DNA of 64,000 nt from Escherichia coli (GTDB lineage: Bacteria; Pseudomonadota; Gammaproteobacteria; Enterobacterales; Enterobacteriaceae). The stretch is taken from the NCBI RefSeq assembly GCF_024502345.1, contig NZ_JALDNN010000001.1, one strand, 5' to 3'. The position numbers and the translations under genes were made by a program. Below the pieces are notes generated by a model, which was not told the origin of the DNA, did no database searches, and worked only from the letters and a program-made list of their open reading frames with translations. Positions 32,525 through 49,942 of this stretch are shown piece after piece (within the stretch, counting starts at the first letter, position 1; each line of letters begins with the position of its first letter).

Positions 32525-33012
32525 TGAAATCGTTAATTATCGTTAATCCGGCTGACTGTATTGGCTGCCGTACTTGTGAAGTGGCCTGTGTGGTCGCTCA
32601 CCCTTCAGAACAGGAGTTGAATGCCGATGTCTTTTTACCCCGGCTGAAGGTACAGCGACTGGACTGCATCAGTGCGCCGGTGATGTGCCATCAGTGTGAA
32701 AACGCCCCTTGTGTTGGCGCTTGCCCCGTGGGGGCGCTGGCGATGGGCGAGCAGGTGGTGCAGACCAATTCTGCCCGTTGTATTGGCTGTCAGAGCTGTG
32801 TCAGTGCGTGTCCGTTTGGGATGATCACCATTCAGTCGTTGCCGGGGGATACCCGGCAACAAATCGTGAAATGCGATCTCTGTGAACAGCGGGAAGAGGG
32901 GCCAGCCTGCGTTGAATCTTGCCCGACACAGGCGCTGCAGTTGCTTACTGAAAGAGAACTCAGGCGAATCCGCCAGCAGCGTATTGTTGCCAGCGGTGAG
33001 AATCCTCTCTGA
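32521..33012 (+). CDS. ygfS: 4Fe-4S ferredoxin-type protein
   Basis: 163 aa with four CxxCxxCxxxCP-type motifs; ATGA overlap with the ygfT stop. Confidence 0.9.
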
Positions 33013-33018
33013 AAGAAA

Positions 33019-33042
33019 TCTCCGCGCTGAAAGGCGCGGAGA
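33019..33042. terminator. bidirectional hairpin terminator between ygfS and ghxQ
   Basis: TCTCCGCGCTGAAAGGCGCGGAGA perfect palindrome between convergent genes. Confidence 0.65.
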
Positions 33043-33047
33043 ATCTA

Positions 33048-34415: not shown

Positions 34416-34450
34416 AATGATGTCCTCACGAGGATGTAAAAGTTTTATTA

Positions 34451-35770
34451 TTAGTTGCGTTCGTACACCAGACGACCATCAACGTAGGTGCGGTAGATCG
34501 AACGGTCATCGCCCAACGTCATCATCACGAACAATTTGTCGACTAAAGAAACAGAGTTGTCATAGCGCAGCTGCTGTAGCGGAGTGGCGGTGGGTTCCAT
34601 CACCACGAAATCAGCCTCTTTGCCAGGTAAAAAGTTGCCAATCAAATCGTCAAGGCCCAGAGATTTCGCTCCGCCGAGCGTGGCCAGGTAAAACGCTTCA
34701 TATGCCGAGAGGCGATAGCCTTGTAATTGCAACACTTTGTAGGCTTCGTTCAGCGTTTGCAGCATGTTGAAAGTGGTTCCGGCACCGATATCCGTTCCCA
34801 TGCCCACTTTGACTTTCTTCTGCCATGCTTTTTTCAAGTTGAATAAGCCGCTGCCGAGGTAAAGGTTGGAGGTCGGACAGAAAGCAATGCTGGATTTGGT
34901 TTCGCTGAGACGATCCCACTCTTTTTCTTCGAGATGGACGCAGTGAGCAAAGACACAGTTTTTACCGGTCAGGCCGTACTGATGGTAAACATCCAGATAA
35001 CCATCATGGTCAGGATAAAGCGAGTTCACCCAGGCAATTTCATCTTTGTTTTCACAGAGATGGGTATGTACCCACGTATCCGGATATTCCTCTTTCAGGC
35101 GTTGCGCCATCGCCATCTGTTCAGGAGAAGAAGTAGGGGCGAAGCGTGGTGTAATCGCATATAGCAGACGACCATTTTTGTGCCAGCGTTCAATCAGTTC
35201 TTTGCTTTGGTGATAGCTGCTTTCGGCAGTGTCGAGCAGATAATCCGGTGCGTTACGGTCCATCATCACCTTACCGGCAATCATACGCATATTGATATGA
35301 CTGGCGGCTTCAAACAGCGCATCAACGGATTGCGGATGAACAGTGCCAAACACCAGCGCCGTGGTGGTTCCGTTACGTAAAAGCTGCTTGATGAAGAACG
35401 CCGACATTTCGCGGGCGTACTCTAAATCCTCATAACGCCGTTCAGTAGGGAAGGTGTGTTTATTCAACCACTCCAGCAATTGCTCACCATAGGCCCCCAC
35501 CATTTCACTTTGCGGATAATGGATATGTGTATCGACAAAGCCCGGTACTATCAGTTTGCCGCGATAGTCGCGCACGCGAATGGTGTCAGGAATTTGATGC
35601 TTTCCGTTTTCCCATTCGCCAAACCATTCCACTTTTCCCTGTTTAATGAGTAATAAACCATCCTCAATAAACCGCAGCGCAGAGGCAATCTCTTCCGGGT
35701 TATCGACCGTACGGGTGACATCAATAAAACTGCCTCGTACCGCTTTTAACGTGTGTTCTCCTGACATCAT
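34451..35770 (-). CDS. guaD: guanine deaminase
   Basis: ORF 34451..35890; start at [15 protein letters not shown] (complement of 35765-35770); amidohydrolase metal site ([12 protein letters not shown]); 439 aa. Confidence 0.92.
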
Positions 35771-35784
35771 TGACTCCTTTACTG

Positions 35785-37185
35785 TTAATCCATCTCTTCC
35801 GCTGAGGTAATACCAGGCAGAACGTTTTCCTGTCGGTAGCCACCAGGGAGGATAATATTTAATAAAATCGCAGTTAACCCGCCAGCACAAATAGGGTTTT
35901 CAACTAATACATAAATAGAGGCTGGCAATATTTTAAAAATTTCGGGATCGTAGGAGACGCCAAGCCCTAAACCTAAAGAAGTGGCGACAATAAGTGTTTC
36001 ACGCCGCTTTAATCCGTTGGTGATGATGATGCGAATCCCAGCGATGGCAATCATGGAAAACATCAACGTCATTGCGCCTCCCAGAACTGCCGAGGGAATG
36101 GTCGTGAAGAAGCCGCCAATCATCGGAAATAAGCCGAGGATAACCAGCATTACCGCGATGGTTCGCCCGACATAACGTGAAGCGACGCCAGTCATCTGAA
36201 TAACCCCATTATTTTGCGCAAACGTGGTTAATGGTAATGAACCGACAGCGGAGGCGATAACAGAAACCAGACCATCTGCCAGCACGCCGCCTTTCAGTCG
36301 GGACTGATACTCTTCCCCCTGAATGGGGCGGCGGGAAACCATTGCCGTGGCGGTGATATCGCCGACTGCTTCCAGCACGCTAAGCAGATAAATCGTGCCA
36401 ACCACCAGGAACTGATGGAAGCTAAAACTAAAGCCGTATTTGAACGGATGCGGGATGGTGATTAACGGCAAATTGCGCATACTGCTGAAATCCACCATGC
36501 CCAGGCATAACGATGCGATATAGCCGACACATAGCCCAATGGCGATCCCTCCCATGCGTAGCAACGGACTGCGACAGCAGTTAAAGCCGATCACCACAAT
36601 TAAAACCAATAAACCAACGCCGAGATGTTCGTAATTGCCGAACGTACCGCTGCTTTTGGCTGCAAATCCTCCACCAAAATCGATAATGCCGACTTTAATC
36701 AGGCTTAAGCCGATCATCAGTACCACAATACCGCTGACGGTAGGCGTAATAACCCGACGTAAATAGGGCAAGATAAATGAAGATCCGACAACCAGAAATG
36801 CGCCAACGAAGGAGACGCCGAGAAGCGACGACATGATTAACTCTTCGTGAAAACCGTCGCTTTTCATGCTGCTGCCCAGCGCAATCATGACCGTAACAAA
36901 TGAAAAATTGACTGACTGAATTGAGAGTAGGCCAGAACCGACGATGCCGTAGCGGTTTACTTGTAACCAGGTACCAATACCAGAGGCGATCATCGCCATA
37001 GAAACAAGATAGGCGGTTGTTTCAGCGGAAAGCTGTAAGGCCGCACCCACGATTAACACGGGGGTTACCATCGGAACGAAAATTGCCAACAGATGGGTAA
37101 TGGCACCAACGAGAGCCTGATGAAAGGGAGGGCGATCCTCCAGTTCAAATATAAGGTCAGAACCTGCATGGTTTATATCAGACAT
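35785..37185 (-). CDS. xanQ: xanthine permease (NCS2 family)
   Basis: ORF 35785..37242; start at MSDINHAGSDLIFELEDRPPFHQA; 466 aa. Confidence 0.9.
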   Translation of the reverse strand: MSDINHAGSDLIFELEDRPPFHQALVGAITHLLAIFVPMVTPVLIVGAALQLSAETTAYLVSMAMIASGIGTWLQVNRYGIVGSGLLSIQSVNFSFVTVMIALGSSMKSDGFHEELIMSSLLGVSFVGAFLVVGSSFILPYLRRVITPTVSGIVVLMIGLSLIKVGIIDFGGGFAAKSSGTFGNYEHLGVGLLVLIVVIGFNCCRSPLLRMGGIAIGLCVGYIASLCLGMVDFSSMRNLPLITIPHPFKYGFSFSFHQFLVVGTIYLLSVLEAVGDITATAMVSRRPIQGEEYQSRLKGGVLADGLVSVIASAVGSLPLTTFAQNNGVIQMTGVASRYVGRTIAVMLVILGLFPMIGGFFTTIPSAVLGGAMTLMFSMIAIAGIRIIITNGLKRRETLIVATSLGLGLGVSYDPEIFKILPASIYVLVENPICAGGLTAILLNIILPGGYRQENVLPGITSAEEMD

Positions 37186-37349
37186 CCCTTCACTCCTTTT
37201 AAAGTAAATTTGATCATCTGAATTAGTAAAATAAATTCCCACGAATTTGGGGCGCAGGACGCCTTGAGAACGGCTTATCTCATTTTCGCAGTCACTATTT
37301 AGTCATCGTCCAAACAGAGAAACAGGCCGCCGAAGCGGCCATTTATTAT

Positions 37350-40220
37350 TTATATCTTTTCCAGCGCGGTGAGTATTTTCTCCGGTGTGAAATGCCATTC
37401 GCGTAACCAGATGCCGCATGCATCGTGAATTGCGGTAGCAATCGCCGGAGCTGCGCCATTTACACCGATTTCCGAGATCGATTTCGCCCCGAACGGGCCG
37501 ACTTTATCGTCGCTCGGCACCAGCACTGCGCGGAAATCACGCGGAATGTCACCAATTTTCGGTGCGCCGTAGCTGCGTAAATCACGCGTTAACGGGTGAC
37601 CTTCGGCGTCATAAATGATCTCTTCGCTCATACTGTGGCCGATAGCTCGCAGGGTAGCACCGTAGATTTGTCCCAATGCTAATTCCGGGTTGACCGGTGT
37701 ACCGCAGTCCAGCAAGGCGTAGAATTTATCCAGGCGGATTTCACCCGTACGCGTGTTGACGGCAACTTCAGCGAAGTTTGCGCCATACGGGAAGGCGAAA
37801 TCAGGCGTGATATAACTGCCAGTTCCCACCAGTGAACCAAAGCCGGTGCCGGTTTCGCCTTTATGAGCAATATCCCCGAAGCTGACTTCGCCTTTCTTGC
37901 CGCGCACGACGCCCGGCGTTGCCAGTTGAACATCTGCCACTGCCTCACCCAACATTTGCGCGCCGTGGAACAGAATTTTCTCCCGCAGATTTTCCGCTGC
38001 CAAACGCGCCGCGTTACCTGAGAAGCAAGTACCGGACGAGGCATATGCGCCTTTATCAAACAACGCATGATCGGTATCACCGGAGATAACATGCACGTCC
38101 TGCGGTGGGCAGTGCAGCACTTCTGCTGCCAGTTTCGTCACTACAGTATCCAGACCAGTACCAATATCCGCACCGCCAGAATGAACGATAAAGGTGCCGT
38201 CCGATTCCAGTTTGATCATGCAGTTAGCCTGATCGATATCCGGGATACCCGATTTCTGCATGATAATGGCGACGCCGCGACCGATGTGCCAGTCACCATT
38301 TTGCGGTTTCGGTGACGACCATTGGATCATCTCGCGACCCTGACGCAGGATCTCTTCCAGTGCACAGCTGGCGGCGGAAGGAACGGAGGTCGGCGCTTTA
38401 CCTTCACCGATTGCACCGAGAATTTTCAGCTCTTGCCCTTCGTGTACCCGGTTACGTTCGATAATTTCCAGTTGGTCGATCTGTAACTGTTCAGCCAGTT
38501 CCGCTAATGCCATGGTGATAGCGAAGTTACCTTTCGGTGCGCCATAACCCTGATAAGCACCATTTGGGCAAATGTTGCTGTAGTAGGTGGTGACCTGGAA
38601 ATCGACGTTATCGCACGGATATAACGGCAGCGACAGCGCCGGTCCGTTACACGGTACGGTGAGTGAGTGGTTGCCGTAAGGGCCAGTGTTGGCGCGGAAA
38701 TCCATCTTCACTGCCGTCAGGCGACCATCTTTTTTCGCTCCCAGTTTGACGGTGACTTTCGCGACGTGACGAGAGGTGTTAGCAATAAACTCTTCTTCAC
38801 GGGTGTAGCGGAACAGGACCGGACGCCCGGTCACGCAGGTTGCCCAGGCGCACACTTCTTCCAGCAGGATGTCCTGTTTGGAACCAAAACCGCCGCCAAC
38901 TCGTTCTTTAATGACATGAACTTTATGCTGTTTCATGCCCACGAGGCGCGCGACCTGGCGGCGTAAGTGCCATGGTACCTGGGTGGAGGCGTGGATAACC
39001 AGACGATCGCCGTCCATACGAGTAAAGCAGATATGTGTTTCAGTCGGGCACTGCTGCGCTTGCGTTGAGTTATAGGTTCGCTCAATGATCACATCGGCAT
39101 CGGCAAAGCCTTTGTCCATATCGCCAATATGACCATGAATACTGGCGGCGATATTTTTGCGTGGACGAGAACCGATCGGGAAGTTGATGATCATATGCTC
39201 GCCGCGCTGGGCTGCATGGCTGTTATCGTCTTCCAGAGTATCTGGCGCACCAGCAACATACACAACCGGTTCATCGTGCACGACAGGCGCATCTTCCGCC
39301 ATTGCTTCGTCGATCGACATTACCGGTTTAAGCACTTCATATTCAACGTCGATGAGCTTCAATGCTTCAAGCGCAATTTCTTCACTTTCAGCGACGACCG
39401 CAGCAACACGATCGCCGACGTGACGCATTTTCTTGCCGAACATACGGCGGTCAAGCGGTGACGGTTCCGGTGCGCTCTGCCCCCCCGGGGTATAGTAGAT
39501 ATCCGGGCAATTCAGATGAGTAATAACGTGAACGACGCCCGGTAAGGCTTCAGCTTTGCTGACATCCAGATGAGTAATCAGTGCGTGAGCGTGTGGGCTA
39601 CGTAACATTTTAATGACGCAGGCGTCAGCCGTTACGCGGTCTTCAACATAGCAGGGCTTCGCCTGCACCATTTTTGCGGCATCAGTTTTAGGATAATGCT
39701 TACCAATGACTTCAAGGTCGTCACGGAAAGTCGGAGCGATATCAATGGTGGCCTGCGGATTATTTTTACGTGCAACCGCCAGTTCAATGACCTGATAGTA
39801 TTGTTGCCAGCCTGCATCGCGGCTGAACAAACCAGAAAGCGCGTCGTCGATCTCTTCGCGGGTAGGTGCGGCGATGCGATCGAGAAGATCGGTGATAATC
39901 AGAGCCGCAGCTGGATCGTTATAACCAGACTGCACCACGCCAACATCAACCATTGCCTGTTGAACCAGACTTAACTCGTTCCATTTGCCCAGAGATTCTG
40001 CGGTACGAATATCTGCCTTCTCTAACTGTGCGGCAATAAGCAAGGACGCGTTAACGATATTACCGTTAAAGATAATTGCGTCAGAACCGGCAAACCCGAA
40101 GCCATCATCACTGTTGCGTACAGAGTGCATTCCCATGTTAAACAACAGCTTTTGCACGTTTTCGCCTAGATTAACGGTTAGCTCCTGAGGCGCGCCATTT
40201 AAAGTAAAGTGGATGATCAT
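37350..40220 (-). CDS. xdhD: molybdopterin-dependent hydroxylase (xanthine dehydrogenase family) with N-terminal Fe-S domain; putative selenium-dependent
   Basis: 956 aa; aldehyde oxidase/xanthine dehydrogenase Mo-binding domain signatures. Confidence 0.9.
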   Translation of the reverse strand: MIIHFTLNGAPQELTVNLGENVQKLLFNMGMHSVRNSDDGFGFAGSDAIIFNGNIVNASLLIAAQLEKADIRTAESLGKWNELSLVQQAMVDVGVVQSGYNDPAAALIITDLLDRIAAPTREEIDDALSGLFSRDAGWQQYYQVIELAVARKNNPQATIDIAPTFRDDLEVIGKHYPKTDAAKMVQAKPCYVEDRVTADACVIKMLRSPHAHALITHLDVSKAEALPGVVHVITHLNCPDIYYTPGGQSAPEPSPLDRRMFGKKMRHVGDRVAAVVAESEEIALEALKLIDVEYEVLKPVMSIDEAMAEDAPVVHDEPVVYVAGAPDTLEDDNSHAAQRGEHMIINFPIGSRPRKNIAASIHGHIGDMDKGFADADVIIERTYNSTQAQQCPTETHICFTRMDGDRLVIHASTQVPWHLRRQVARLVGMKQHKVHVIKERVGGGFGSKQDILLEEVCAWATCVTGRPVLFRYTREEEFIANTSRHVAKVTVKLGAKKDGRLTAVKMDFRANTGPYGNHSLTVPCNGPALSLPLYPCDNVDFQVTTYYSNICPNGAYQGYGAPKGNFAITMALAELAEQLQIDQLEIIERNRVHEGQELKILGAIGEGKAPTSVPSAASCALEEILRQGREMIQWSSPKPQNGDWHIGRGVAIIMQKSGIPDIDQANCMIKLESDGTFIVHSGGADIGTGLDTVVTKLAAEVLHCPPQDVHVISGDTDHALFDKGAYASSGTCFSGNAARLAAENLREKILFHGAQMLGEAVADVQLATPGVVRGKKGEVSFGDIAHKGETGTGFGSLVGTGSYITPDFAFPYGANFAEVAVNTRTGEIRLDKFYALLDCGTPVNPELALGQIYGATLRAIGHSMSEEIIYDAEGHPLTRDLRSYGAPKIGDIPRDFRAVLVPSDDKVGPFGAKSISEIGVNGAAPAIATAIHDACGIWLREWHFTPEKILTALEKI

Positions 40221-40996
40221 ACGGCTTCCTCCCCAGCCTGTTGGCAGTCGGCATACAGGTCGGCTACCAGAACTCCCGTGATATAGCGTTTATAGGCCAC
40301 GCTGCCCCGCAAATCTTCCTGCGGGAAAATGGCGTTGGCGACAGCCTGTTCAAGTGCATTGCCTTCCAGATTTTGTTTTTCGACATCGTGCAGACGCAGT
40401 GCTTTACTGGCGACGCCATCCAGCGCAATTCGCATACCGTCGTGGTCTGTCATTGCAACGGCTGCCGTCACGACGGTTAAACCTGCCTGAGAACGGCTAA
40501 TTTTGCGGGTCGCACAGGTGCGATACGGATCTTTAATGATAATTTCGGTTAGCAGGCGATCGCATGGGCAGGTCAGGTAGTCCTCGATTGACAGCGTTTC
40601 GCCGTTGCCAAAAACCAGTTCAGCATCCAGTGCCAGCAGGACGGGAAGCAGCACCGACTCTTCCTGCCGGGCGGCGATTTCACCACCAATGGTCGACTGA
40701 TTACGAACATGGCGTGAGTAAACAAAACCGAGGGCTTCACGCAGCGCTGCAGGAATAAATCGCGCATCACGCAGTGGCTGCAAGCGAGACATTGCGCCAA
40801 TCCGCAGTGCACCGTTATCCCAGTCAACCCAGTCCAGTTCCAGATCCTGTAAGGAAATGGCAATCTTTTTATCGGTACGGGTTGGTGTAGCATTGAGTTT
40901 GCTGCCCCCGGCGAACCAGACGGCTTCATCTTGGTAGCGGCGCTTCAGTTCCAGCGCCTGTTCGACAGAGTCGGGCCTGAAAAATTGTTCAATCAT
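40217..40996 (-). CDS. ygfM: FAD-binding subunit of molybdenum hydroxylase (CoxM/XdhB-like)
   Basis: 259 aa; overlaps the xdhD start by 4 nt. Confidence 0.88.
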   Translation of the reverse strand: MIEQFFRPDSVEQALELKRRYQDEAVWFAGGSKLNATPTRTDKKIAISLQDLELDWVDWDNGALRIGAMSRLQPLRDARFIPAALREALGFVYSRHVRNQSTIGGEIAARQEESVLLPVLLALDAELVFGNGETLSIEDYLTCPCDRLLTEIIIKDPYRTCATRKISRSQAGLTVVTAAVAMTDHDGMRIALDGVASKALRLHDVEKQNLEGNALEQAVANAIFPQEDLRGSVAYKRYITGVLVADLYADCQQAGEEAV

Positions 40997-41046
40997 CTTC
41001 TTTCCTTATTTAACCCTCTTCCCTGCGGGAAGAGGGCATCTGTCAT

Positions 41047-42375
41047 TTATGCCAGCGCATCCATCCGACGCCACATACTGGCAGCGGCTTTTCTGGCTTG
41101 TGCATAAATGGAATCGCAATCGAAGTTAAACTGACGGTCTTCATAGACCATCACACCATTGACCATTACGCTGTGAACGCTGCCTGAGCCCATACCGAAA
41201 GCGATATGCCCGGCGATATTGTCTGCCAGCAGCGGCGTCGGCGAGTTGTAATCGCAAATGGTTAAATCAGCTTTGTAACCGGCTTCCAGAAGCCCAAATT
41301 TCGCGCCAAAGTTGCGGCTCATCAGTTCGTTACCGTTAGTCAGGGCTTTGGCAAAACTGTCAGGCCACAGCGGATCACCCGCATCGCGATGTTTAAAGAA
41401 GGCAAATTTCATCTCTTCAAACATGTCCGAACCAATGCCGTCCGTTCCCAACGCCAGATTGCGGATGTCGCTAAGGTGATGGTTGTAGCCGACATGGTTG
41501 TTCATGTTTGAACGGGCGTTATGCACCAGGAACGCATCGCGCTGATTGAGTAGGGCGATGTCATCTTTCGACAAGTACAGCCCATGAGCGACCAGCGTTT
41601 TGCTGTCGATGAGATCGAATTGCGCCAGTCGTGCCAGCAGGTCTTTGCCGTACCAGTGGTGACTGTAGGAAACGTCGTAAAGGTCTTCCGCAGCGTGAAT
41701 ATGCAAACCACGGCCTGTGGCTTTCACGGCTTCACGCAGCATCTCCAGACCGGCATCCGGCACGGTAAACGGCGCGTGAGCACCGATATGTGCTTCCACC
41801 AGATACGGCTCGCTTGTCGCTTTCTTCGCCTCATCAATCAAACGGGCGAAACGGATGTTTTCTTCTACACCTTCCTGCAACTCTTTGATGCCGTTGTTAC
41901 GGTCAGTAGTTTCAAAACAGGTCATTGCGCGCAGGCCAACTTTTAAAAATGCGTCGCGCAATGTGGAGAGCGACCCGCCGATATACGCCGGAGAGGCATG
42001 GTGATCGATAACCGATGTACATCCGCTCTTAATCGCTTCCAGGGAACAAATCAGTCCGCTGTAATAGAGCGACTCTTCATCAAGGGCGCGATCGAGCCGC
42101 CACCAGAGATTTTTCAGCGTTGAGATGAAATCCGGGCAGGGGGCGATGTTTGCCATAATTCCGCGGGAAAGCCCCGAGTAAAAATGGTTGTGCGAGCAGA
42201 CAATTCCCGGCATCACAATCCGACCATGCATCTCTTTGTAGCTGGCATCGGGGTCGCGTTGCGTCAGGGCATCGCCGATAGCGACAATCACGTCATTTTC
42301 GATAGCGATATCAACGCCTTCCTGTACTTTCGCCGGGTGTAACTGCACTGCGGTGACATTCTTCAGAATCAACAT
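41047..42375 (-). CDS. ssnA: amidohydrolase/chlorohydrolase-family protein SsnA
   Basis: ORF 41047..42441; start at MLILKNVTAVQ (complement of 42373-42375); metal-dependent hydrolase HxH motif (SHNHFYS); 442 aa. Confidence 0.9.
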   Translation of the reverse strand: MLILKNVTAVQLHPAKVQEGVDIAIENDVIVAIGDALTQRDPDASYKEMHGRIVMPGIVCSHNHFYSGLSRGIMANIAPCPDFISTLKNLWWRLDRALDEESLYYSGLICSLEAIKSGCTSVIDHHASPAYIGGSLSTLRDAFLKVGLRAMTCFETTDRNNGIKELQEGVEENIRFARLIDEAKKATSEPYLVEAHIGAHAPFTVPDAGLEMLREAVKATGRGLHIHAAEDLYDVSYSHHWYGKDLLARLAQFDLIDSKTLVAHGLYLSKDDIALLNQRDAFLVHNARSNMNNHVGYNHHLSDIRNLALGTDGIGSDMFEEMKFAFFKHRDAGDPLWPDSFAKALTNGNELMSRNFGAKFGLLEAGYKADLTICDYNSPTPLLADNIAGHIAFGMGSGSVHSVMVNGVMVYEDRQFNFDCDSIYAQARKAAASMWRRMDALA

Positions 42376-42377
42376 GA

Positions 42378-45300
42378 TTACACCTCCACGCGGCCCAGCA
42401 GATAATGATGATGCTGGTGGACATGGCTGATGATGCGGCACATATCGTTCAGCTCCGGTGGTACGTTGTTAAACTGACCTTCGCTGTCGATGTTTAACAC
42501 CCAGCTTTGGTTATTCAGACGTACTCGTACCCGGCAATCTTCCACAAGGAAGCCTGGGTTGCTGCTGTTATCAAAGTCTTGCGCCAGGCTGAAGACGGTG
42601 ATTTTGTCTTTGTATGGTTTACCGTTCCACGGACAGAACTGAGCGCAGTTGCCGCATTCGTTACAGTAAGCGTCGAGGTGCAGCGTCTGGAATCTATTCT
42701 GGAAGCCAGGGACTGCAATGGAGACGTTGGCGCGGTTCGGGCAGACATCCACGCACTTGCTGCAAACGTAGTTACATTCAAGGCAGCGAGCAGCTTCCTG
42801 CGCGACAAACGCATCACGATCGTCACTGTTCACCAGCGTGATAGAGATATCGCCTTTACGTTGATAGATTTCCGCCGGATTGACGTTGTTCCAGTATTTA
42901 TTGTTCTGGTGGGAACGGATATTTTCCCGACTAAGGATGGCATCGGTCGCCCGACGCGCGGTTCCGACAGCAGCGACAATGGAGGATGGTCCGCGCTGTA
43001 CGTCGCCGATCATAAAGACGTCAGTCAGACGAGTTTCGCCATTATGGTCGACGTCTGGCCAGCCGTTTTTGTCCAGCGGTACGCCCATCGCATTCAGGGC
43101 TTCAGTATCCTGCTGTTCACCGATGGCGGTGATCAGACTGTCTACATGCAGTGTTACTGTTTCGTTGGTTTCAACCGGACGGCGACGACCTTTCTCATCG
43201 GGTTCGCCAAGCGACATAACGCGCAAGGTTAAGGTGCCATCAGCATCGAAACATTCCGGATTATTCAGGAAACGGAACTCCACGCCGTCGTGCAACGCTT
43301 CTTCATACTCTTCGCGCCATGCGGGCATCTCTTGCAGTGAACGACGGTAAACGATCGTTGCTTTTTCTACGCCTGGAACGCGTAACGCCGCACGAGCGCA
43401 GTCCATTGCGGTGTTACCCGCCCCGACAACGACCACATGTTTGCCCAGCTTGAGCGCTGTACCCTTGTTGTATTCACGCAGGAAGGGGAGTGATTTCCAG
43501 ACATTTTGGTTGTCGCCCGCCAGTTTCACACCGCTATTTTTATCAGTGCCGGTGGCAATCAGAACATAGTGGAAGCCCTGATTTTTTAACTGTTCAACGG
43601 TCAAATCGGGTGAGCAGCCATACTCAAATTTCACGCCGTGAGCGGCAACAAAATCGATATCGTGCTGAATTAACTCTGCAGGAATACGGAACTGAGGGAT
43701 GATATTTTTCACCACGCCGCCCGCATTGGCTTCGCGTTCAAACAGCGTAACCGGATGGCCCGCTCTGGCAAGGAAGTAACCTGCAGCCAGACCCGCCGGA
43801 CCTGCACCAATCACTGCAACCGGATGGCGTGAACCAGAACCGGCTGGTTTGTGCCAGCGTTGCTTATATTCATCCCAACCTTTTTCCAGCGCGACTTTTT
43901 TCAGTTCGCGGATATTCAGTGCACTGTCGTAATCCAGGCGGGTACAGTTGTATTGGCACTGGTGATCGCAAATATGACCGGTAATGGCGGGCAGGGCGTT
44001 GCGTTGGTAGATAAGTTCCAGCGCGTCGGCATAGCGGTGTTCGCCAAGCAGACGGATGTATTCCGGAATATCTTGCTTGATCGCGCAGGCAGTAACACAG
44101 GGGGCAACGTAGCAGTCGGTCAGCGGCAGGTCTTCTGCCACTTCAATACGCTCTTCTGGCTTCCAGTGTTTCTGGGTGTATTCCATGGTTAGCGCGTCTG
44201 CTGCCAGTCTGTTCAGTCGTTCGACGTCAACATGGTCAAGTCCCCAGGCGTCGGAGCCTTCCAGCTCGCGCATGCAGGCACTTAAACGCAGATAGCCACC
44301 AGGTTTCAGCAGGTCGGTTGCCATAGTAATAGGGCGAATACCTGTATCAAAAATATCGCGGATAGTCAGCTGACTGGCACCACCGGAATAAGAAATGGGC
44401 AGTTTGCCGTCAAAGGCGCGAGAGAGAACTGCTGCAACATTGATGGAGAGCGGGAACAGCGCACGGCCTGACATATACATCTCTTCACCAGGCAGTGCGC
44501 CTTTATTGTTGATGGTGCCGAGAGTGTTAGTCAGTTTTACGCCAAAGCCGAGTGATTTTTCTTTTGCCAGTGCCATCAGGCGTTCCAGCATTTCCAGTGC
44601 TTGCGTCAGCTTGAGGTCGTGATCAAATGACTCTTCTTTTAAGCCTATGTAACCGAAACCGCAGACATCGAGGATCTCACGAACACGCGCGTACCCCAGT
44701 AAGGTCGGGTTGAGTTTCACAAAGGTGTTGAGCCCTTTTTCTTCCAGCATGTAGCGGCAAATGGCTTCGATTTCATGCGGAGGACAGCCGTGCATGGTGG
44801 AGAGGGTGACGCCCTGCACCATACTGGTGGGGATGCGAGCGGGTAAGGCTTGCAAGCTTTCGCGTTTTTCCTGCAATCCGTGGCGGGCTAAAAATGCGTC
44901 ATCCTGGAGTAATTTATTCAGCGTATCGCGATATTGCGCGAATTTCGGATGGTCAGATGCGTCCATCATATTGTCGATGAACTGTTGCATCGGCGGTTGC
45001 TTAATACCTTCAAGGTTGTAACCGACGCTCATATTAAAGATGAACGATTTACCGGAATCAGAAGGCTGGAACATCGCTTCGAGAAGGTGCAGGGCAAACC
45101 AGGCTTTGAGGTATTCATCCCAGGCTTTAAGCAGGGTAAATTCGGTAGACCATTCGGTGTTAAAGCACTCGTCTTCGGCATCGATACAGGGCTTTTCCAG
45201 CTCCAGGCGGTCAAGAATTTGGACGGTTTTTAGTTCGATGAAGCGTCCGCCAGTCAGCCAGGAAGTGACAATATTTTGCGCGAGCTGCGTGTGCGGGCCA

Positions 45301-45476
45301 GCGGCAGGGCCGACGGGAGTGGCACAGGTTTCACCGAAGACGCTAACAGTTTTACCTTTTACAGGTGAGTAAAACTGTTGCTCGGGAATACCAAAGATTG
45401 AGCGTTGTTGTTGGTATTCATCAAATATGCGCGTCAAAAGTTCCTCAAACGGAATGGGACGCATAATATCCCCCAT
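42378..45476 (-). CDS. ygfK: large Fe-S/FAD oxidoreductase (putative selenate-reductase-type / glutamate-synthase-like subunit)
   Basis: 1032 aa; [21 protein letters not shown] dinucleotide fold, multiple Cys clusters near the C-terminus. Confidence 0.9.
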   Translation of the reverse strand: MGDIMRPIPFEELLTRIFDEYQQQRSIFGIPEQQFYSPVKGKTVSVFGETCATPVGPAAGPHTQLAQNIVTSWLTGGRFIELKTVQILDRLELEKPCIDAEDECFNTEWSTEFTLLKAWDEYLKAWFALHLLEAMFQPSDSGKSFIFNMSVGYNLEGIKQPPMQQFIDNMMDASDHPKFAQYRDTLNKLLQDDAFLARHGLQEKRESLQALPARIPTSMVQGVTLSTMHGCPPHEIEAICRYMLEEKGLNTFVKLNPTLLGYARVREILDVCGFGYIGLKEESFDHDLKLTQALEMLERLMALAKEKSLGFGVKLTNTLGTINNKGALPGEEMYMSGRALFPLSINVAAVLSRAFDGKLPISYSGGASQLTIRDIFDTGIRPITMATDLLKPGGYLRLSACMRELEGSDAWGLDHVDVERLNRLAADALTMEYTQKHWKPEERIEVAEDLPLTDCYVAPCVTACAIKQDIPEYIRLLGEHRYADALELIYQRNALPAITGHICDHQCQYNCTRLDYDSALNIRELKKVALEKGWDEYKQRWHKPAGSGSRHPVAVIGAGPAGLAAGYFLARAGHPVTLFEREANAGGVVKNIIPQFRIPAELIQHDIDFVAAHGVKFEYGCSPDLTVEQLKNQGFHYVLIATGTDKNSGVKLAGDNQNVWKSLPFLREYNKGTALKLGKHVVVVGAGNTAMDCARAALRVPGVEKATIVYRRSLQEMPAWREEYEEALHDGVEFRFLNNPECFDADGTLTLRVMSLGEPDEKGRRRPVETNETVTLHVDSLITAIGEQQDTEALNAMGVPLDKNGWPDVDHNGETRLTDVFMIGDVQRGPSSIVAAVGTARRATDAILSRENIRSHQNNKYWNNVNPAEIYQRKGDISITLVNSDDRDAFVAQEAARCLECNYVCSKCVDVCPNRANVSIAVPGFQNRFQTLHLDAYCNECGNCAQFCPWNGKPYKDKITVFSLAQDFDNSSNPGFLVEDCRVRVRLNNQSWVLNIDSEGQFNNVPPELNDMCRIISHVHQHHHYLLGRVEV

Positions 45477-45548
45477 AACCCTCTCCTTAGCTTATACAGA
45501 TATCATTGAGTGACCGGTGTTGAGAAATCCGGTGGTTTAGGGGGATAG

Positions 45549-45573
45549 AGCAACAATCGCACCACTCTTGCCA
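45549..45573 (-). promoter_or_regulatory. candidate sigma-54 (-24/-12) promoter for ygfK
   Basis: Minus-strand read: TGGTGC-gattg-TTGCT (GG-N10-GC spacing), overlapped by TGGCAA-gagtg-GTGCG; about 75-95 nt upstream of the ygfK start. Confidence 0.4.
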
Positions 45574-45797
45574 GGTTTGGCGGGAAATATAAAAAAATGT
45601 GAGGCGGCTCGAAACTTAAGGGCTTTTTGTGAATGAACTCACAGGTGCTAAATGAGAATTAAAATCACTCCTGAAAATTATTATTGCCAGCCCATTTATC
45701 ACTTTTTCTCTTTTCTCAAAATCAGTGATTCCTTATCATTATGATAAAGAGTGCCGGAAGGATTAAATATTTGAACGCAATCGTTTAACTACGTTTT

Positions 45798-46376
45798 CTA
45801 AATTTCTGTATACCTTTTCTTCGCTGTAATAAAGTCGTCCGGAGTATCAATATCTAAAATTATTTCTGCATTTTCTATTTCGACGGAATAATGATCTCCC
45901 ATAAGGAGTGCCTGACGCATATTGGTGACATTGGGTCGCTGGATTGCCTGCATCAGGCATGGTTTTGACACTAAAATCGGATGGCCGGGGATGCCATTAT
46001 GGAGTGGCAGTATTGCGCCATCATTTCGTAACGACCAGATTTTTCTAAAAATATCGATGGTGAGGGTTGGCATGTCACCGTGGGTGAGAAAACAATGTTC
46101 TGTTTGCACCGCGGGTACTGCGGCCTTTACTGATGTTAGTAAACCCTGCGCATAATCTGGGTTGTGGATAATAGTGATATTGCTCTGGTTCGCATAACGT
46201 TCGTGCAGTTCATTACCACGATAGCCGGTGACTAAAATAATTCGGCTACAAAACTGCAACGCATTTTTGATACTTGTATCAAGAATTGTTCCCTGTTGCC
46301 AGGGTAACATCATTTTCCATTGCCCCATTCTTGATGATAATCCGGCAGCGGTAATTATACAGTCGATGGCTGACAT
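45798..46376 (-). CDS. mocA: molybdenum cofactor cytidylyltransferase (MobA-like NTP transferase)
   Basis: 192 aa; MSAIDCIITAAGLSSRMGQWKMMLPW... nucleotidyltransferase fold. Confidence 0.9.
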   Translation of the reverse strand: MSAIDCIITAAGLSSRMGQWKMMLPWQQGTILDTSIKNALQFCSRIILVTGYRGNELHERYANQSNITIIHNPDYAQGLLTSVKAAVPAVQTEHCFLTHGDMPTLTIDIFRKIWSLRNDGAILPLHNGIPGHPILVSKPCLMQAIQRPNVTNMRQALLMGDHYSVEIENAEIILDIDTPDDFITAKKRYTEI

Positions 46377-46478
46377 AGTGGTTCCATTATTTATAGGGGC
46401 TAATAACGCCTGATAATTGCGTTACTTCCTGATGCATTAAGTTGGGGATAATTTATCCCAGAGAGGTCATAAAGACTC

Positions 46479-47249
46479 GTGAAAAGTATAGTTGACCCAT
46501 CGGCATTAGTCATTGATTTAGGCGCGCAGAAACGTCCCACTGTGATTTCTGTTGTTGGTGCTGGGGGGAAAACCAGCTTGCTTTTTTGGCTGGCAGAACT
46601 GCTCCAGGCTAGCGGCAGGCGTGTGTTAATCACGACGACAACACATATGTTTATGCCAACGTCTCACTGGCCCGTGGTTTTCTGTCGTGATCCCGCCATG
46701 CTTCCTCATGCGTCTCTTACATCCCCCATTTCATTTTGTTTTCACAGCTGGAAAGCGAACCAGGGAAAAGTGCAGGGATTTACGCCAGAAGCGATTGATG
46801 CACTGGTGCAACGACCAGAGTGTGACGTAATTCTCATTGAAGCAGATGGCTCGCGTGGAATGCCGTTAAAAGCGCCTGATGAGCACGAACCTTGCATACC
46901 CAAAAGCAGTTGCTGCGTGATTGCTGTGATGGGAGGACATACTTTGGGCGCGAAAGTGAGCACAGAAAATGTCCATCGCTGGTCGCAGTTTGCTGATATT
47001 ACCGTGTTAACACCTGATGCAACCTTGCAACTGAGCGATCTCGTTGCGCTGGTTCGCCACCCTCAGGGGGCGTTTAAAAACGTACCGCAAGGTTGTCGGC
47101 GAGTCTGGTTCATTAACCGTTTTTCTCAATGTGAGAATGCGATTGCACAAAGCGAGCTCCTTCAACCGCTGCAACAACACGACGTAGAGGCAATCTGGCT
47201 GGGCGATATACAAGAACATCCTGCAATCGCGCGCAGATTTGTGAATTAG
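46479..47249 (+). CDS. yqeC: selenium-dependent hydroxylase accessory protein YqeC
   Basis: 256 aa, GTG start; VVGAGGKTSLLF nucleotide-binding-like motif. Confidence 0.85.
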   Translation: MKSIVDPSALVIDLGAQKRPTVISVVGAGGKTSLLFWLAELLQASGRRVLITTTTHMFMPTSHWPVVFCRDPAMLPHASLTSPISFCFHSWKANQGKVQGFTPEAIDALVQRPECDVILIEADGSRGMPLKAPDEHEPCIPKSSCCVIAVMGGHTLGAKVSTENVHRWSQFADITVLTPDATLQLSDLVALVRHPQGAFKNVPQGCRRVWFINRFSQCENAIAQSELLQPLQQHDVEAIWLGDIQEHPAIARRFVN

Positions 47250-47296
47250 CGGCCCGGGTATTCCGGGTTACTGAAAGGATATCCATTGAGGTTGGT

Positions 47297-48922
47297 ATGA
47301 ATATTTTCACAGAGGCTGCAAAACTCGAAGAGCAAAATTGTCCGTTTGCGATGGCGCAAATTGTTGATAGCCGAGGCTCGACTCCCCGCCATTCTGCACA
47401 AATGTTAGTGCGCGCCGATGGTTCTATCGTCGGTACAATTGGTGGCGGAATGGTTGAGCGGAAGGTGATTGAAGAGTCACTTCAGGCATTGCAGGAACGT
47501 AAGCCGCGATTATTCCATGGACGTATGGCTCGTAACGGTGCGGATGCTGTCGGGTCAGATTGTGGAGGTGCAATGTCAGTATTTATCAGCGTCCATGGTA
47601 TGCGTCCACGTCTGGTGTTGATTGGCGCGGGGCATGTCAACCGGGCGATAGCCCAGAGTGCGGCGCTATTAGGATTTGATATTGCCGTTGCCGATATTTA
47701 TCGCGAAAGCCTCAATCCTGAACTATTCCCTCCATCAACCACGCTTCTCCATGCTGAGTCGTTTGGTGCAGCAGTGGAAGCACTGGATATTCGCCCTGAT
47801 AATTTTGTCCTGATTGCCACGAATAATCAGGATCGTGAAGCCCTCGACAAACTCATTGAACAGCCCATTGCATGGTTGGGGTTGCTGGCAAGTCGCCGCA
47901 AGGTTCAGCTTTTCCTGCGTCAATTGCGTGAGAAAGGCGTGGCTGAAGAACATATTGCCCGTTTACATGCGCCCGTTGGTTACAACATAGGTGCGGAAAC
48001 GCCGCAGGAGATCGCCATCAGCGTGCTGGCAGAAATATTACAGGTGAAAAATAACGCGCCGGGTGGGCTGATGATGAAACCTTCTCATCCTTCCGGACAC
48101 CAGCTGGTGGTGATTCGCGGTGCGGGAGATATCGCCAGTGGTGTGGCGCTACGTCTGTATCATGCGGGTTTTAAAGTGATCATGCTGGAAGTGGAAAAAC
48201 CGACAGTGATTCGTTGTACCGTGGCGTTTGCCCAGGCCGTGTTCGATGGCGAAATGACGGTCGAAGGCGTCACTGCTCGCCTGGCAACCAGCTCTGCGGA
48301 AGCGATGAAACTTACCGAACGCGGATTCATCCCTGTGATGGTAGATCCCGCCTGTTCATTGCTTGATGAACTGAAACCGCTTTGCGTGGTGGACGCTATT
48401 CTGGCGAAACAGAATTTGGGAACGCGGGCAGATATGGCACCAGTAACAATCGCGCTTGGGCCGGGCTTTACTGCAGGGAAGGATTGTCATGCGGTAATTG
48501 AAACAAATCGCGGGCACTGGCTCGGTCAGGTGATTTACTCTGGTTGTGCGCAGGAGAATACCGGTGTTCCTGGCAATATTATGGGGCATACCACCCGACG
48601 GGTGATCCGTGCTCCTGCTGCAGGCATTATGCGATCCAACGTGAAATTAGGCGATCTGGTGAAAGAGGGCGATGTGATTGCCTGGATTGGTGAGCATGAA
48701 ATTAAAGCACCGTTGACGGGGATGGTGCGTGGCTTGTTGAACGACGGCCTGGCAGTGGTCGGTGGTTTTAAAATTGGTGATATCGATCCTCGTGGTGAAA
48801 CGGCTGATTTCACCAGTGTTTCTGATAAAGCCCGGGCGATTGGCGGCGGCGTACTTGAGGCGTTAATGATGTTGATGCATCAGGGCGTGAAAGCGACAAA
48901 AGAAGTGCTGGAAGTGGCTTAA
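47297..48922 (+). CDS. yqeB: XdhC/CoxI-family maturation protein (selenium-dependent molybdenum hydroxylase system protein YqeB)
   Basis: 541 aa with Rossmann-like segments (LIGAGHVNRAIA, VVIRGAGDIASG). Confidence 0.88.
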   Translation: MNIFTEAAKLEEQNCPFAMAQIVDSRGSTPRHSAQMLVRADGSIVGTIGGGMVERKVIEESLQALQERKPRLFHGRMARNGADAVGSDCGGAMSVFISVHGMRPRLVLIGAGHVNRAIAQSAALLGFDIAVADIYRESLNPELFPPSTTLLHAESFGAAVEALDIRPDNFVLIATNNQDREALDKLIEQPIAWLGLLASRRKVQLFLRQLREKGVAEEHIARLHAPVGYNIGAETPQEIAISVLAEILQVKNNAPGGLMMKPSHPSGHQLVVIRGAGDIASGVALRLYHAGFKVIMLEVEKPTVIRCTVAFAQAVFDGEMTVEGVTARLATSSAEAMKLTERGFIPVMVDPACSLLDELKPLCVVDAILAKQNLGTRADMAPVTIALGPGFTAGKDCHAVIETNRGHWLGQVIYSGCAQENTGVPGNIMGHTTRRVIRAPAAGIMRSNVKLGDLVKEGDVIAWIGEHEIKAPLTGMVRGLLNDGLAVVGGFKIGDIDPRGETADFTSVSDKARAIGGGVLEALMMLMHQGVKATKEVLEVA

Positions 48923-48962
48923 ATGAAAATGGCCGGATGGTATTACCCCCCCGGCCTTAAAA

Positions 48963-49895: not shown

Positions 49896-49942
49896 TTTTC
49901 CTCACTCATCATTCTTGATTGTGTATAGATCCCTGACAGTGG

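What the first reader, a model, noticed from the sequence alone, without database searches (positions are those of the whole stretch)
37350..48922. Cryptic selenium/molybdenum hydroxylase module with its own maturation genes
xdhD (Mo hydroxylase with Fe-S N-terminus), ygfM (FAD subunit), ssnA (amidohydrolase) and ygfK (1032-aa Fe-S/FAD oxidoreductase) form a tightly packed minus-strand operon with 4-nt start/stop overlaps. Immediately upstream lie mocA (Mo-cofactor cytidylyltransferase) and divergent yqeC–yqeB (XdhC-like maturation proteins). Comparative genomics associates this gene set with selenium-dependent molybdenum hydroxylases, but the physiological substrate and the nature of the selenium cofactor in E. 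coli remain unresolved as far as I know. The co-location with purine transporters and guaD suggests an anaerobic purine or urate branch.
Basis: partly seen in the sequence, partly recalled or inferred. Interest (0 to 1): 0.55.

Follow-up and report, generated by a model that had tools for sequence, protein, structure and literature searches.

The report
Known E. coli anaerobic urate pathway
This stretch is the E. coli gene block that starts the oxygen-free breakdown of uric acid; its function was worked out experimentally in 2023-2025, so the finding is largely ordinary, but whether selenium is needed in E. coli is untested and the 'iron-sulfur' domain of XdhD has no cysteines.

Summary
The block occurs in 5185 of 5426 complete E. 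coli genomes.

The guess of an anaerobic urate branch was right, but the substrate is no longer unknown. Two 2025 papers show that XdhD-YgfM reduces urate to 2,8-dioxopurine. YgfK (NADPH) and SsnA then reduce and open the ring. [quoted passage not shown]

Selenium dependence is shown only for the clostridial orthologue. For E. coli I found no test.

Corrections:
- Only one gene junction has a 4-nt overlap.
- YqeC is a P-loop NTPase, not XdhC-like.
- Only the N-terminal half of YqeB is XdhC-like.

Additions from this work:
- The YqeB core domain occurs fused to XdhC, MocA or YqeC in other organisms, which ties the three accessory genes to one process.
- All eight cysteine ligands of XdhD's two [2Fe-2S] sites are replaced. 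The replacements are invariant in 107 proteobacterial orthologues. I found no paper that mentions this. It leaves the path of electrons from FAD to molybdenum unexplained.

Verdict: already known; modest interest.

The parts
37350..40220 (-). xdhD: molybdenum subunit, urate to 2,8-dioxopurine reductase (956 aa)
   Evidence: ORF. TIGR03313, 2119 bits against a cut-off of 1102. Pfam MoCoBD_1, MoCoBD_2, Ald_Xan_dh_C, Fer2_2. Two aa differences from K-12 XdhD, whose activity was shown in PMC12507026. E606 and the catalytic-type Glu E917 are present.
39771..40220 (-). XdhD residues 1-150: [2Fe-2S]-like double domain with no cysteines (ligand positions are D38, A44, D47, S59, S98, N101, S133, D135)
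   Evidence: No Cys before residue 190. Alignments to aldehyde oxidoreductase and to nine Cys-bearing Fe-S subunits or fusions. Ligand substitutions conserved in 107 orthologues of at least 75% identity: six positions counted in the alignment, S98 and N101 seen only as the conserved motif VQSGYNDPA in sampled sequences.
40217..40996 (-). ygfM: FAD-binding subunit (259 aa); its stop overlaps the xdhD start by 4 nt
   Evidence: TIGR03312, 488 bits. Junction read. A protein of about 30 kDa, taken to be YgfM, co-purifies with XdhD. No conserved Cys cluster.
41014..41036 (-). perfect 10-bp hairpin in the 50-nt ssnA-ygfM spacer; function unknown
   Evidence: Inverted repeat I8, 100% complementary with a 3-nt loop; sequence read.
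41047..42375 (-). ssnA: amidohydrolase that opens the ring of reduced 2,8-dioxopurine (442 aa)
   Evidence: TIGR03314, 731 bits. Activity of the K-12 enzyme. Four aa differences from K-12.
42378..45476 (-). ygfK: NADPH:2,8-dioxopurine oxidoreductase, an Fe-S flavoprotein (1032 aa)
   Evidence: TIGR03315, 1780 bits. Pfam Fer4_20 and Pyr_redox_2, plus weaker C-terminal ferredoxin-type (Fer4_7) matches and Cys motifs. Activity. Six aa differences from K-12.
45549..45565 (-). sigma-54 promoter of ygfK (GTGGTGCGATTGTTGCT), ending 72 nt before the ATG
   Evidence: Exact match to the ChIP-seq-mapped K-12 site OS31.
45798..46376 (-). mocA: CTP:molybdopterin cytidylyltransferase; makes the MCD form of the cofactor
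   Evidence: TIGR03310, 215 bits. Function as reviewed in PMC2997495.
46479..47249 (+). yqeC: SIMIBI-class P-loop NTPase, proposed cofactor-maturation factor (256 aa)
46880..46896 (+). sigma-54 promoter inside yqeC that drives yqeB; it overlaps the codons of the invariant HEPC motif
   Evidence: Exact match to K-12 site IS34, validated there by mutagenesis, RT-qPCR and western blot. Codon register.
47297..48922 (+). yqeB: XdhC-type cofactor chaperone (residues 12-247) fused to the selenium-trait core domain (residues 271-526)
   Evidence: Pfam XdhC_CoxI and XdhC_C. TIGR03309 on residues 271-526. PDB relatives 2we7 and 3on5 for the N-terminal half only. Core model pLDDT 94.7: a Rossmann-like part plus a BCCP-like barrel. 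Identical in protein sequence to K-12.
37325..37340 (-). GC-rich hairpin followed by a T-rich run just after the xdhD stop; likely end of the ygfK-ssnA-ygfM-xdhD transcript
   Evidence: Terminator-like site; sequence read. Inference only.
   Evidence: NCBIfam matches above cut-off. Order as in RefSeq. Enzyme roles.
55570..57348 (+). ygeV: sigma-54 enhancer-binding protein, presumed activator of the cluster
   Evidence: Sigma-54 activator domain matches. RefSeq annotation. ygeV is required for urate use according to Iwadate & Kato 2019, as cited.
28721..37185 (.). flanking purine genes: uacT (28721-30169 -), ygfT (30605-32524 +), ygfS (32524-33012 +), ghxQ (33048-34415 -), guaD (34451-35767 -), xanQ (35785-37185 -)
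   Evidence: RefSeq annotation mapped onto the window. NCBIfam matches for UacT and YgfT.

Best explanation
The region is the upstream half of the E. coli reductive (2,8-dioxopurine) uric-acid degradation cluster, together with the genes that mature its molybdenum cofactor.

Shown by published experiments on K-12 proteins that differ from these by 0-6 residues:
- XdhD with YgfM removes the C6 oxygen of urate reductively, giving 2,8-dioxopurine.
- YgfK uses NADPH to reduce that purine.
- SsnA hydrolyses the reduced ring.
- MocA makes the cytosine-dinucleotide form of the cofactor.
- Sigma-54 promoters lie upstream of ygfK and inside yqeC. The latter drives yqeB.

Inferred, not shown for E. coli:
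- The XdhC-like half of YqeB holds the cofactor, while its core domain exchanges the terminal ligand on molybdenum for selenium supplied via SelD.
- YqeC assists as a nucleotide-driven factor.
- YqeB then inserts the finished cofactor into XdhD.

Unexplained:
- XdhD has no cysteine ligands for the two [2Fe-2S] clusters that normally wire FAD to molybdenum.
For: Identity.

Conservation and selection: the block is present in 5185 of 5426 complete E. coli genomes. Against K-12 there are 128 nucleotide but only 16 amino-acid differences across the seven genes.

Function: XdhD-YgfM, urate to 2,8-dioxopurine with NADH; YgfK plus SsnA to ureidomethyl-hydantoin; mutant phenotypes of xdhD, xdhA and ygfK deletions. 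Independent reconstitution with the E. coli enzymes apart from the molybdoenzyme, and matching E. coli mutants.

Regulation: both published sigma-54 sites are exactly conserved.

Maturation link:
- YqeB carries an XdhC module.
- Among 150 representatives, the YqeB core occurs alone (49), fused to XdhC (about 40, in both orders), to MocA (12, in both orders) or to YqeC (10, in both orders).
- In 80 genomic loci, YqeC is next to the YqeB core in 71 and an XdhC-like gene in 60.
- YqeC has the fold of the metallochaperone-rich SIMIBI NTPases.

Selenium: SelD is required for the C. sporogenes orthologue; yqeB is required in C. difficile; the YqeB core family is found only in selD-positive genomes.
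Against: - I found no experiment that tests selenium, yqeB or yqeC in E. coli.
- Deleting yqeC in C. difficile gave no phenotype.
- The YqeB core has no invariant cysteine, and its BCCP-like barrel lacks the carrier lysine, so no selenium-carrying residue can be named.
- In XdhD the eight [2Fe-2S] cysteines are absent. The published picture of YgfM-FAD passing NADH electrons to molybdenum, as in Rhodobacter xanthine dehydrogenase, therefore lacks its wire. I found no turnover rates in the passages of that paper that I read.
Confidence: 0.85

Rival explanations
1. E. coli XdhD is an ordinary sulfur-type (Mo=S) hydroxylase. YqeB acts only as its XdhC-type chaperone, and selenium is not needed in E. 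coli.
For: I found no E. coli data for a selenium requirement. YqeB carries a complete XdhC module, and E. coli has no other XdhC-type gene beside xdhABC or xdhD. yqeC is dispensable in C. difficile.
Against: The YqeB core domain is restricted to selD-positive genomes. The clostridial orthologue purified from a selD mutant is inactive. yqeB is required for urate-dependent growth in C. difficile. The core domain, YqeC and MocA are conserved, under purifying selection here, and fused to one another elsewhere.
Confidence: 0.25
2. XdhD-YgfM is not self-sufficient. Because the [2Fe-2S] wire is missing, electrons reach molybdenum in vivo from another Fe-S protein of the island (YgfK, YgfT/YgfS, AegA) or by a route that bypasses YgfM. 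The NADH activity seen in vitro would then be slow or indirect.
For: All eight Cys ligands are replaced, and the replacements are conserved in 107 orthologues. YgfM has no compensating conserved Cys. Firmicute relatives keep the cysteines and have no YgfM-like or XdhB-like gene in their loci. ygfT and aegA are required for formate-dependent urate use and were proposed to carry electrons from formate dehydrogenase. ygfK is co-transcribed and rich in Fe-S motifs.
Against: Affinity-purified XdhD with a ~30 kDa partner made 2,8-dioxopurine from urate and NADH. AlphaFold3 predicts a confident XdhD-YgfM dimer. No structure or distance was computed here.
Confidence: 0.4
3. The operon encodes a selenate reductase, as the RefSeq and TIGRFAM names suggest.
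For: The names 'putative selenate reductase subunit YgfK' and 'Se_sel_red_Mo/FAD'. Bebien et al. 2002, as cited.
Against: Selenate was neither required for YgfK activity nor did it enhance it, and YgfK selectively reduces 2,8-dioxopurine. Every gene has a demonstrated step in urate breakdown.
Confidence: 0.04
4. XdhD is a hypoxanthine or xanthine oxidase, the older annotation, working in purine salvage.
For: The names 'probable hypoxanthine oxidase XdhD' in some records. Similarity to XdhA.
Against: The K-12 xdhD deletion strain still consumes xanthine and accumulates urate, whereas the xdhA deletion strain does not consume xanthine. XdhD scores 517 bits against a cut-off of 780 for the XdhA model.
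Confidence: 0.04

Closest known systems
E. coli K-12 ygfK-ssnA-ygfM-xdhD / mocA / yqeC-yqeB locus (b2875-b2881): the reductive or '2,8-dioxopurine' uric-acid pathway (Li et al. 2025, PMC12507026; Liu et al. 2025, bioRxiv 10.1101/2025.04.24.650524)
   Same: Same genes, order, strands and lengths. 98.8% DNA identity over the shared stretch. 0-6 amino-acid differences per protein. Both sigma-54 sites are identical.
   Different: YqeC carries G176V at a glycine kept in at least 90% of the family. The yqeB-yqeA spacer is 40 bp here against about 220 bp in K-12 and O121, which carry a repeat-flanked insert.
Clostridium sporogenes 2,8-dioxopurine dehydrogenase (XdhAC/DOPDH), a selenium-dependent molybdenum hydroxylase
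   Same: Same reaction, urate to and from 2,8-dioxopurine. Fused Fe-S-like and Mo domains. Lies in a cluster with ygfK, ssnA, hyuA, ygeW, ygeY, ygeX. Co-occurs with YqeB, YqeC and SelD.
   Different: The clostridial enzyme has no FAD subunit, does not use NAD(P)H, and is described as having Fe-S binding domains. Firmicute XdhD-like fusions seen here keep all eight cysteines. E. coli XdhD has YgfM but no cysteine ligands. Selenium dependence is shown only for the clostridial enzyme.
4-hydroxybenzoyl-CoA reductase alpha subunit (Thauera aromatica, PDB 1rm6/1sb3)
   Same: Best solved-structure match to the Mo domain of XdhD (E=4e-80, residues 355-953). From my own knowledge, it also runs the family chemistry in the reductive, dehydroxylating direction.
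   Different: Different substrate. From my own knowledge and not checked here, its Fe-S clusters sit on a separate gamma subunit and an extra [4Fe-4S] on the FAD subunit. YgfM has no such conserved cysteines.
XdhC cofactor chaperones (Rhodobacter capsulatus XdhC; PDB 2we7, 3on5)
   Same: YqeB residues 12-247 match XdhC_CoxI and XdhC_C. XdhC binds the cofactor, has its terminal sulfur installed, and inserts it.
   Different: YqeB carries an extra 270-residue core domain (TIGR03309) with no solved relative. That domain is found only in selD-positive genomes.
Nicotinate dehydrogenase of Eubacterium barkeri (PDB 3hrd), the structurally characterised selenium-containing molybdenum hydroxylase
   Same: Same enzyme family (E=4e-44 and 2e-27 to its two Mo subunits). 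From my own knowledge, selenium there is a terminal ligand on molybdenum, which is the model for what YqeB and YqeC may build.
   Different: Different substrate and subunit layout. No selenium data exist for XdhD.
Dihydropyrimidine dehydrogenase / NfnA / glutamate-synthase small-subunit type Fe-S flavoproteins
   Same: YgfK residues about 440-850 match them. The logic is the same: NADPH to FAD to Fe-S to a ring-reducing site.
   Different: YgfK has N-terminal (1-450) and C-terminal (850-1032) regions without Pfam assignment or solved relatives. Its substrate is a purine.

Membership tests
Reductive (2,8-dioxopurine) uric-acid degradation gene cluster | Presence of xdhD/xdhAC-type molybdoenzyme, ygfK (or uacX) and ssnA together | tested here: met
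   All three score above the NCBIfam cut-offs and are adjacent on one strand.
Reductive (2,8-dioxopurine) uric-acid degradation gene cluster | Downstream genes hyuA, ygeW (plus yqeA), ygeY, ygeX nearby | tested here: met
   Window 48963-55091; all above cut-off.
Reductive (2,8-dioxopurine) uric-acid degradation gene cluster | Enzymes catalyse urate to 2,8-dioxopurine, then ring reduction and opening | not testable with these tools
   Shown for K-12 proteins that differ by 2, 1, 6 and 4 residues. Not measured for this allele.
Xanthine-oxidase family molybdenum hydroxylase (XdhD) | Two molybdopterin-cofactor binding domains and the a/b hammerhead domain | tested here: met
   Pfam MoCoBD_1 4e-72, MoCoBD_2 7e-68, Ald_Xan_dh_C 6e-31.
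Xanthine-oxidase family molybdenum hydroxylase (XdhD) | Conserved active-site glutamate near the C-terminus | tested here: met
   E917 in 'GAKSISEIG' aligns with the Glu of 'GASGVGELP' in aldehyde oxidoreductase. That this is the catalytic residue is from my own knowledge.
Xanthine-oxidase family molybdenum hydroxylase (XdhD) | Two [2Fe-2S] clusters, each bound by four cysteines in the N-terminal domains or small subunit | tested here: not met
   The domains are present, but the ligand positions are D38, A44, D47, S59, S98, N101, S133, D135, and there is no Cys in residues 1-189. The same holds in 107 orthologues.
Xanthine-oxidase family molybdenum hydroxylase (XdhD) | FAD-binding partner subunit | tested here: met
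   YgfM matches TIGR03312 and keeps the AGGS and TIGGE motifs when aligned with XdhB. FAD binding itself was not tested.
Selenium-dependent molybdenum hydroxylase trait | YqeB (TIGR03309) and YqeC (TIGR03172) encoded in the genome, near the hydroxylase | tested here: met
Selenium-dependent molybdenum hydroxylase trait | Enzyme activity requires selenium or SelD; labile selenium present in the enzyme | not testable with these tools
   Shown for C. sporogenes DOPDH and by growth in C. difficile. I found no E. coli test. selD is not in this window.
XdhC/CoxI cofactor chaperone family (YqeB) | XdhC_CoxI N-terminal domain plus XdhC Rossmann domain | tested here: met
   Pfam 1e-19 and 1e-32; PDB 2we7, 4e-27.
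   YqeC matches only PF19842 and TIGR03172. Its fold is that of SIMIBI P-loop NTPases.
Selenate reductase (database name of YgfK, YgfM, XdhD) | Selenate is the substrate or is required | not testable with these tools
   In the published assay, selenate was neither required for YgfK activity nor did it enhance it. Selenate reduction itself was not assayed there.
Sigma-54-dependent operon | -24/-12 promoter element upstream, with an enhancer-binding protein nearby | tested here: met
   Exact matches to the ChIP-validated K-12 sites. ygeV lies at 55570-57348. Activation by YgeV was not tested here.

The most novel reading that the evidence does not exclude
Proteobacterial XdhD would be a xanthine-oxidase-family enzyme that has lost both [2Fe-2S] clusters. 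All eight cysteine ligands are replaced, and the replacements are conserved, while the fold is kept and an FAD subunit is present. If so, the canonical FAD to Fe-S to Fe-S to Mo wire does not exist. Urate reduction in E. coli would have to be powered in some other way: by docking of another Fe-S flavoprotein of the island (YgfK, YgfT/YgfS, AegA), or by a redox ping-pong at molybdenum. I found no mention of this in the papers searched. It would sit on top of a selenium ligand whose presence in E. coli is still untested.
Probability: 0.4. Interest if true: 0.6.

Novelty: already known. Interest (0 to 1): 0.3.

Why it matters
The locus is the E. coli version of the gut-bacterial pathway that disposes of about a third of human urate, and it is already being engineered into probiotics.

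Two questions remain.
- Does the E. coli enzyme need selenium, and how do YqeB and YqeC install it? This is the least understood way in which cells use selenium.
- How does a molybdenum enzyme without its iron-sulfur wire obtain electrons?

Both bear on how to make the first, rate-setting step work well in engineered strains. Both are testable in the most tractable organism available.

Tried and rejected
- Rfam scan of the whole window: nothing in 37-49 kb, only 6S RNA, two Sib RNAs and a tRNA elsewhere.
- Sigma-70 promoter and terminator scans: counts no higher than in shuffled sequence, so only the hairpin after xdhD is mentioned, and as inference.
- Generic sigma-54 pattern search: 47 matches against 45 expected, so uninformative. 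Only the exact published sites were used.
- An extra Fe-S cluster in YgfM, as in 4-hydroxybenzoyl-CoA reductase: rejected. C143 and C145 are not conserved in Edwardsiella or Rhodocyclaceae orthologues.
- YqeB's BCCP-like barrel as a swinging-arm carrier: not supported. From my reading of the sequence against E. coli BCCP recalled from memory, the hairpin that carries the modified lysine is shortened and has no lysine. The core has no invariant cysteine.
- Solved structures: none for XdhD, the YgfK termini, YqeC or the YqeB core.
- Literature on selenium dependence in E. coli, or on the missing cysteines: nothing in the searchable library. Subscription papers such as Iwadate & Kato 2019 and Xi et al. 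2000 could not be read.
- Genomic context of one stand-alone YqeB (P0234): an XdhC-like gene is adjacent, but no hydroxylase lies in the 11.6-kb contig.
- Where in evolution the cysteines were lost could not be fixed. The homologue list is cut at the best 120, all of at least 75% identity.

Full report
OBSERVATION

One detail differs: the mechanical ssnA ORF extends to a GTG at 42441, whereas the annotated ATG at 42375 gives the 442-aa protein.

Megablast finds the 11.6-kb stretch in 5185 of 5426 complete E. coli genomes. The best match is 99.3% (O121 strains), and K-12 is 98.8% identical.

RefSeq annotation of both genomes gives xdhD, ygfM, ssnA, ygfK, mocA, yqeC and yqeB in this order. All seven proteins exceed the curated cut-offs of their NCBIfam models.

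Against K-12 every gene has the same length and no internal stop. There are 128 nucleotide but only 16 amino-acid differences, and YqeB is identical. The exact protein sequences exist in NCBI E. coli records. This is therefore a natural, selectively maintained locus, not a decaying one.

CORRECTIONS TO THE OBSERVATION

Only xdhD and ygfM overlap by 4 nt. ygfK and ssnA are 2 nt apart. ssnA and ygfM are 50 nt apart, with a perfect 10-bp hairpin between them.

YqeC is not XdhC-like. In YqeB only residues 12-247 are XdhC-like.

The 'Fe-S N-terminus' of XdhD is treated in its own section below.

WHAT IT IS

The literature held here settles the function.

Li et al. 2025 (PMC12507026) purified E. coli XdhD, which brought down a ~30 kDa protein taken to be YgfM. 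They showed NADH-dependent reduction of urate to 2,8-dioxopurine. YgfK plus SsnA with NAD(P)H convert that to ureidomethyl-hydantoin. HyuA, YgeW, YgeY and YgeX then lead to pyruvate. Deletions of xdhD, xdhA and ygfK behave accordingly.

Liu et al. 2025 (bioRxiv 10.1101/2025.04.24.650524) reached the same pathway by isotope tracing in C. sporogenes and E. coli K-12 mutants. [quoted passage not shown] They also showed that YgfK needs NADPH and is indifferent to selenate.

The downstream genes lie in this window at 48963-55091, and ygeV at 55570-57348. It runs from uacT (28.7 kb) to xdhABC (61 kb).

REGULATION

Two sigma-54 sites mapped in K-12 by ChIP-seq are exactly conserved here:
- GTGGTGCGATTGTTGCT, ending 72 nt before ygfK.
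- TGAGCACGAACCTTGCA, inside yqeC.

Bonocora et al. showed that the second site is the promoter of yqeB. The YgeV activator is encoded nearby. According to Iwadate & Kato 2019, as cited, it is needed for urate use.

MATURATION GENES

MocA is the cytidylyltransferase that makes the MCD cofactor.

YqeB is a fusion of an XdhC-type chaperone with a 270-residue core domain, TIGR03309.

I searched 1.8 billion cluster representatives with YqeB and classified the best 150 hits:
- The core occurs alone in 49.
- It is fused to XdhC in about 40.
- It is fused to a MocA-type transferase in 12.
- It is fused to YqeC in 10.
In each case both gene orders are seen.

A scan of one genome per species returned 80 loci, 48 of them from Collinsella:
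- YqeC is adjacent in 71.
- An XdhC-like gene is adjacent in 60.
- Uricolytic downstream genes are present in 48.

These fusions and neighbourhoods are independent evidence that the three accessory genes act on one object, the MCD cofactor.

AlphaFold models are confident (pLDDT 91 and 94.7).

I therefore infer, but cannot show, the following. YqeB holds the cofactor as XdhC does while its terminal ligand is exchanged. YqeC supplies nucleotide-driven assistance.

Selenium itself is supported by three lines of evidence:
- The core family is restricted to selD-positive genomes.
- DOPDH purified from a C. sporogenes selD mutant is inactive.
- C. difficile needs yqeB for growth on urate, although a yqeC deletion had no phenotype.

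For E. coli I found no test. Li et al. do not mention selenium, yqeB, yqeC or mocA.

THE UNEXPECTED POINT: NO CYSTEINES IN THE FE-S DOMAIN OF XdhD

XdhD has no cysteine in its first 189 residues. Yet residues 1-150 are clearly homologous to the two [2Fe-2S] domains:
- Pfam Fer2_2, E=6e-12.
- The NCBIfam model for the XdhC Fe-S subunit, E=4e-16.
- The N-terminus of aldehyde oxidoreductase.

I aligned it with E. coli XdhC, four separate Fe-S subunits and three fused firmicute XdhD-like proteins from the fetched loci. All eight ligand columns hold Cys in those nine proteins. In E. coli XdhD they are D38, A44, D47, S59, S98, N101, S133 and D135, and a Rhodocyclaceae XdhD carries the same replacements.

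The replacements are conserved across 107 orthologues of at least 75% identity, from Enterobacterales, Photobacterium, Paludibacterium and Rhodocyclaceae. Five positions are invariant and S133 holds in 104 of 107. S98 and N101 were seen only as the conserved motif VQSGYNDPA in sampled sequences.

YgfM has no conserved cysteine cluster that could compensate.

From my own knowledge, all characterised family members pass electrons from molybdenum through two [2Fe-2S] clusters to FAD over roughly 25-35 A. I did not compute a distance here.

The two E. coli-focused papers describe YgfM as 'the electron-transfer module' and model the complex on Rhodobacter xanthine dehydrogenase. Neither mentions this, nor did any other paper I could search.

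Possible resolutions:
- A partner Fe-S flavoprotein. YgfK is co-transcribed. YgfT and AegA are genetically required for formate-dependent urate use.
- Slow, non-physiological NADH turnover in vitro.
- A ping-pong at molybdenum.

I rate this as a real sequence fact whose meaning is unknown.

COMPARISON AND NOVELTY

The locus is the K-12 uricolytic cluster in another strain, so it is already known.

The nearest solved structure for the Mo domain is 4-hydroxybenzoyl-CoA reductase.

The database name 'selenate reductase' and the older name 'hypoxanthine oxidase' are contradicted by published assays and mutants.

Differences from K-12 are minor:
- YqeC G176V, at a glycine kept in at least 90% of the family.
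- Absence of a repeat-flanked insert of about 180 bp between yqeB and yqeA.

VERDICT

Interest is modest (0.3). It rests on the untested selenium requirement in E. coli and on the cluster-less Fe-S domain of XdhD.

Noticed in passing
window 39771-40220 (XdhD residues 1-150): The [2Fe-2S]-like double domain of XdhD has no cysteines. The eight ligand positions are D38, A44, D47, S59, S98, N101, S133 and D135, conserved in 107 proteobacterial orthologues. Firmicute relatives keep all eight Cys. None of the papers searched mentions this.
   Followed up: yes
window 46880-46896, inside yqeC: The validated intragenic sigma-54 promoter for yqeB is written in the codons of YqeC's invariant D/E-H-E-P-C-I motif. 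The DNA string GCACGArCCTTGCAT, including the synonymous choices CCT and TGC, is kept in Kluyvera (with one base changed, CAC to CAT), Cedecea, Edwardsiella, Photobacterium and a Rhodocyclaceae genome. This suggests the promoter itself is conserved.
   Followed up: partly
window 47004-47006 (yqeC codon 176): This strain has Val (GTG) where K-12 has Gly (GGG), at a glycine kept in at least 90% of 32 aligned YqeC proteins. The exact variant protein is on 51 contigs in public data, so it is a natural allele. Its effect is unknown.
   Followed up: partly
window 48923-48962 (yqeB-yqeA spacer): The spacer is 40 bp with a single hairpin (GGCCGGATGGTATTACCCCCCCGGCC). K-12 and O121 have about 220 bp, in which a repeat-like insert is flanked by two copies of that hairpin.
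   Followed up: partly
window 41014-41036: A perfect 10-bp hairpin (CCCTCTTCCC-GCA-GGGAAGAGGG) in the 50-nt gap between ssnA and ygfM, inside the operon. It has no T-run after it. It could be an RNA stability or processing element.
   Followed up: no
L004 (Kluyvera), L005 (Cedecea), L007 (Photobacterium): The slot after ssnA is variable. Kluyvera and Cedecea have no ygfM-xdhD there; the next gene is a divergently oriented YgfT-like gene, and XdhD is encoded elsewhere. Photobacterium has a split XdhA-like Mo subunit (743 aa) plus a Cys-bearing Fe-S subunit (163 aa) there, and a Cys-less XdhD elsewhere on the same contig.
   Followed up: partly
proteins P0195-P0344: The YqeB core domain occurs in nature fused to XdhC, to MocA-type transferases and to YqeC, each in both orders. 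Most stand-alone versions have a Cys in the C-terminal 'DPR.....C.T.SDKARAIGGG' motif where E. coli has Phe.
   Followed up: partly
window 4303-4453, 4695-4845, 5494-5677, 62299-62369: Rfam finds two Sib antitoxin RNAs, 6S RNA (ssrS) and a tRNA (annotated tRNA-Gly in RefSeq). None is related to the finding.
   Followed up: no
window 41047-42441: The mechanical ORF for ssnA extends 66 nt upstream to a GTG inside the end of ygfK. The annotated ATG at 42375 matches NCBIfam position 1 and K-12, so the longer form is probably not used.
   Followed up: partly
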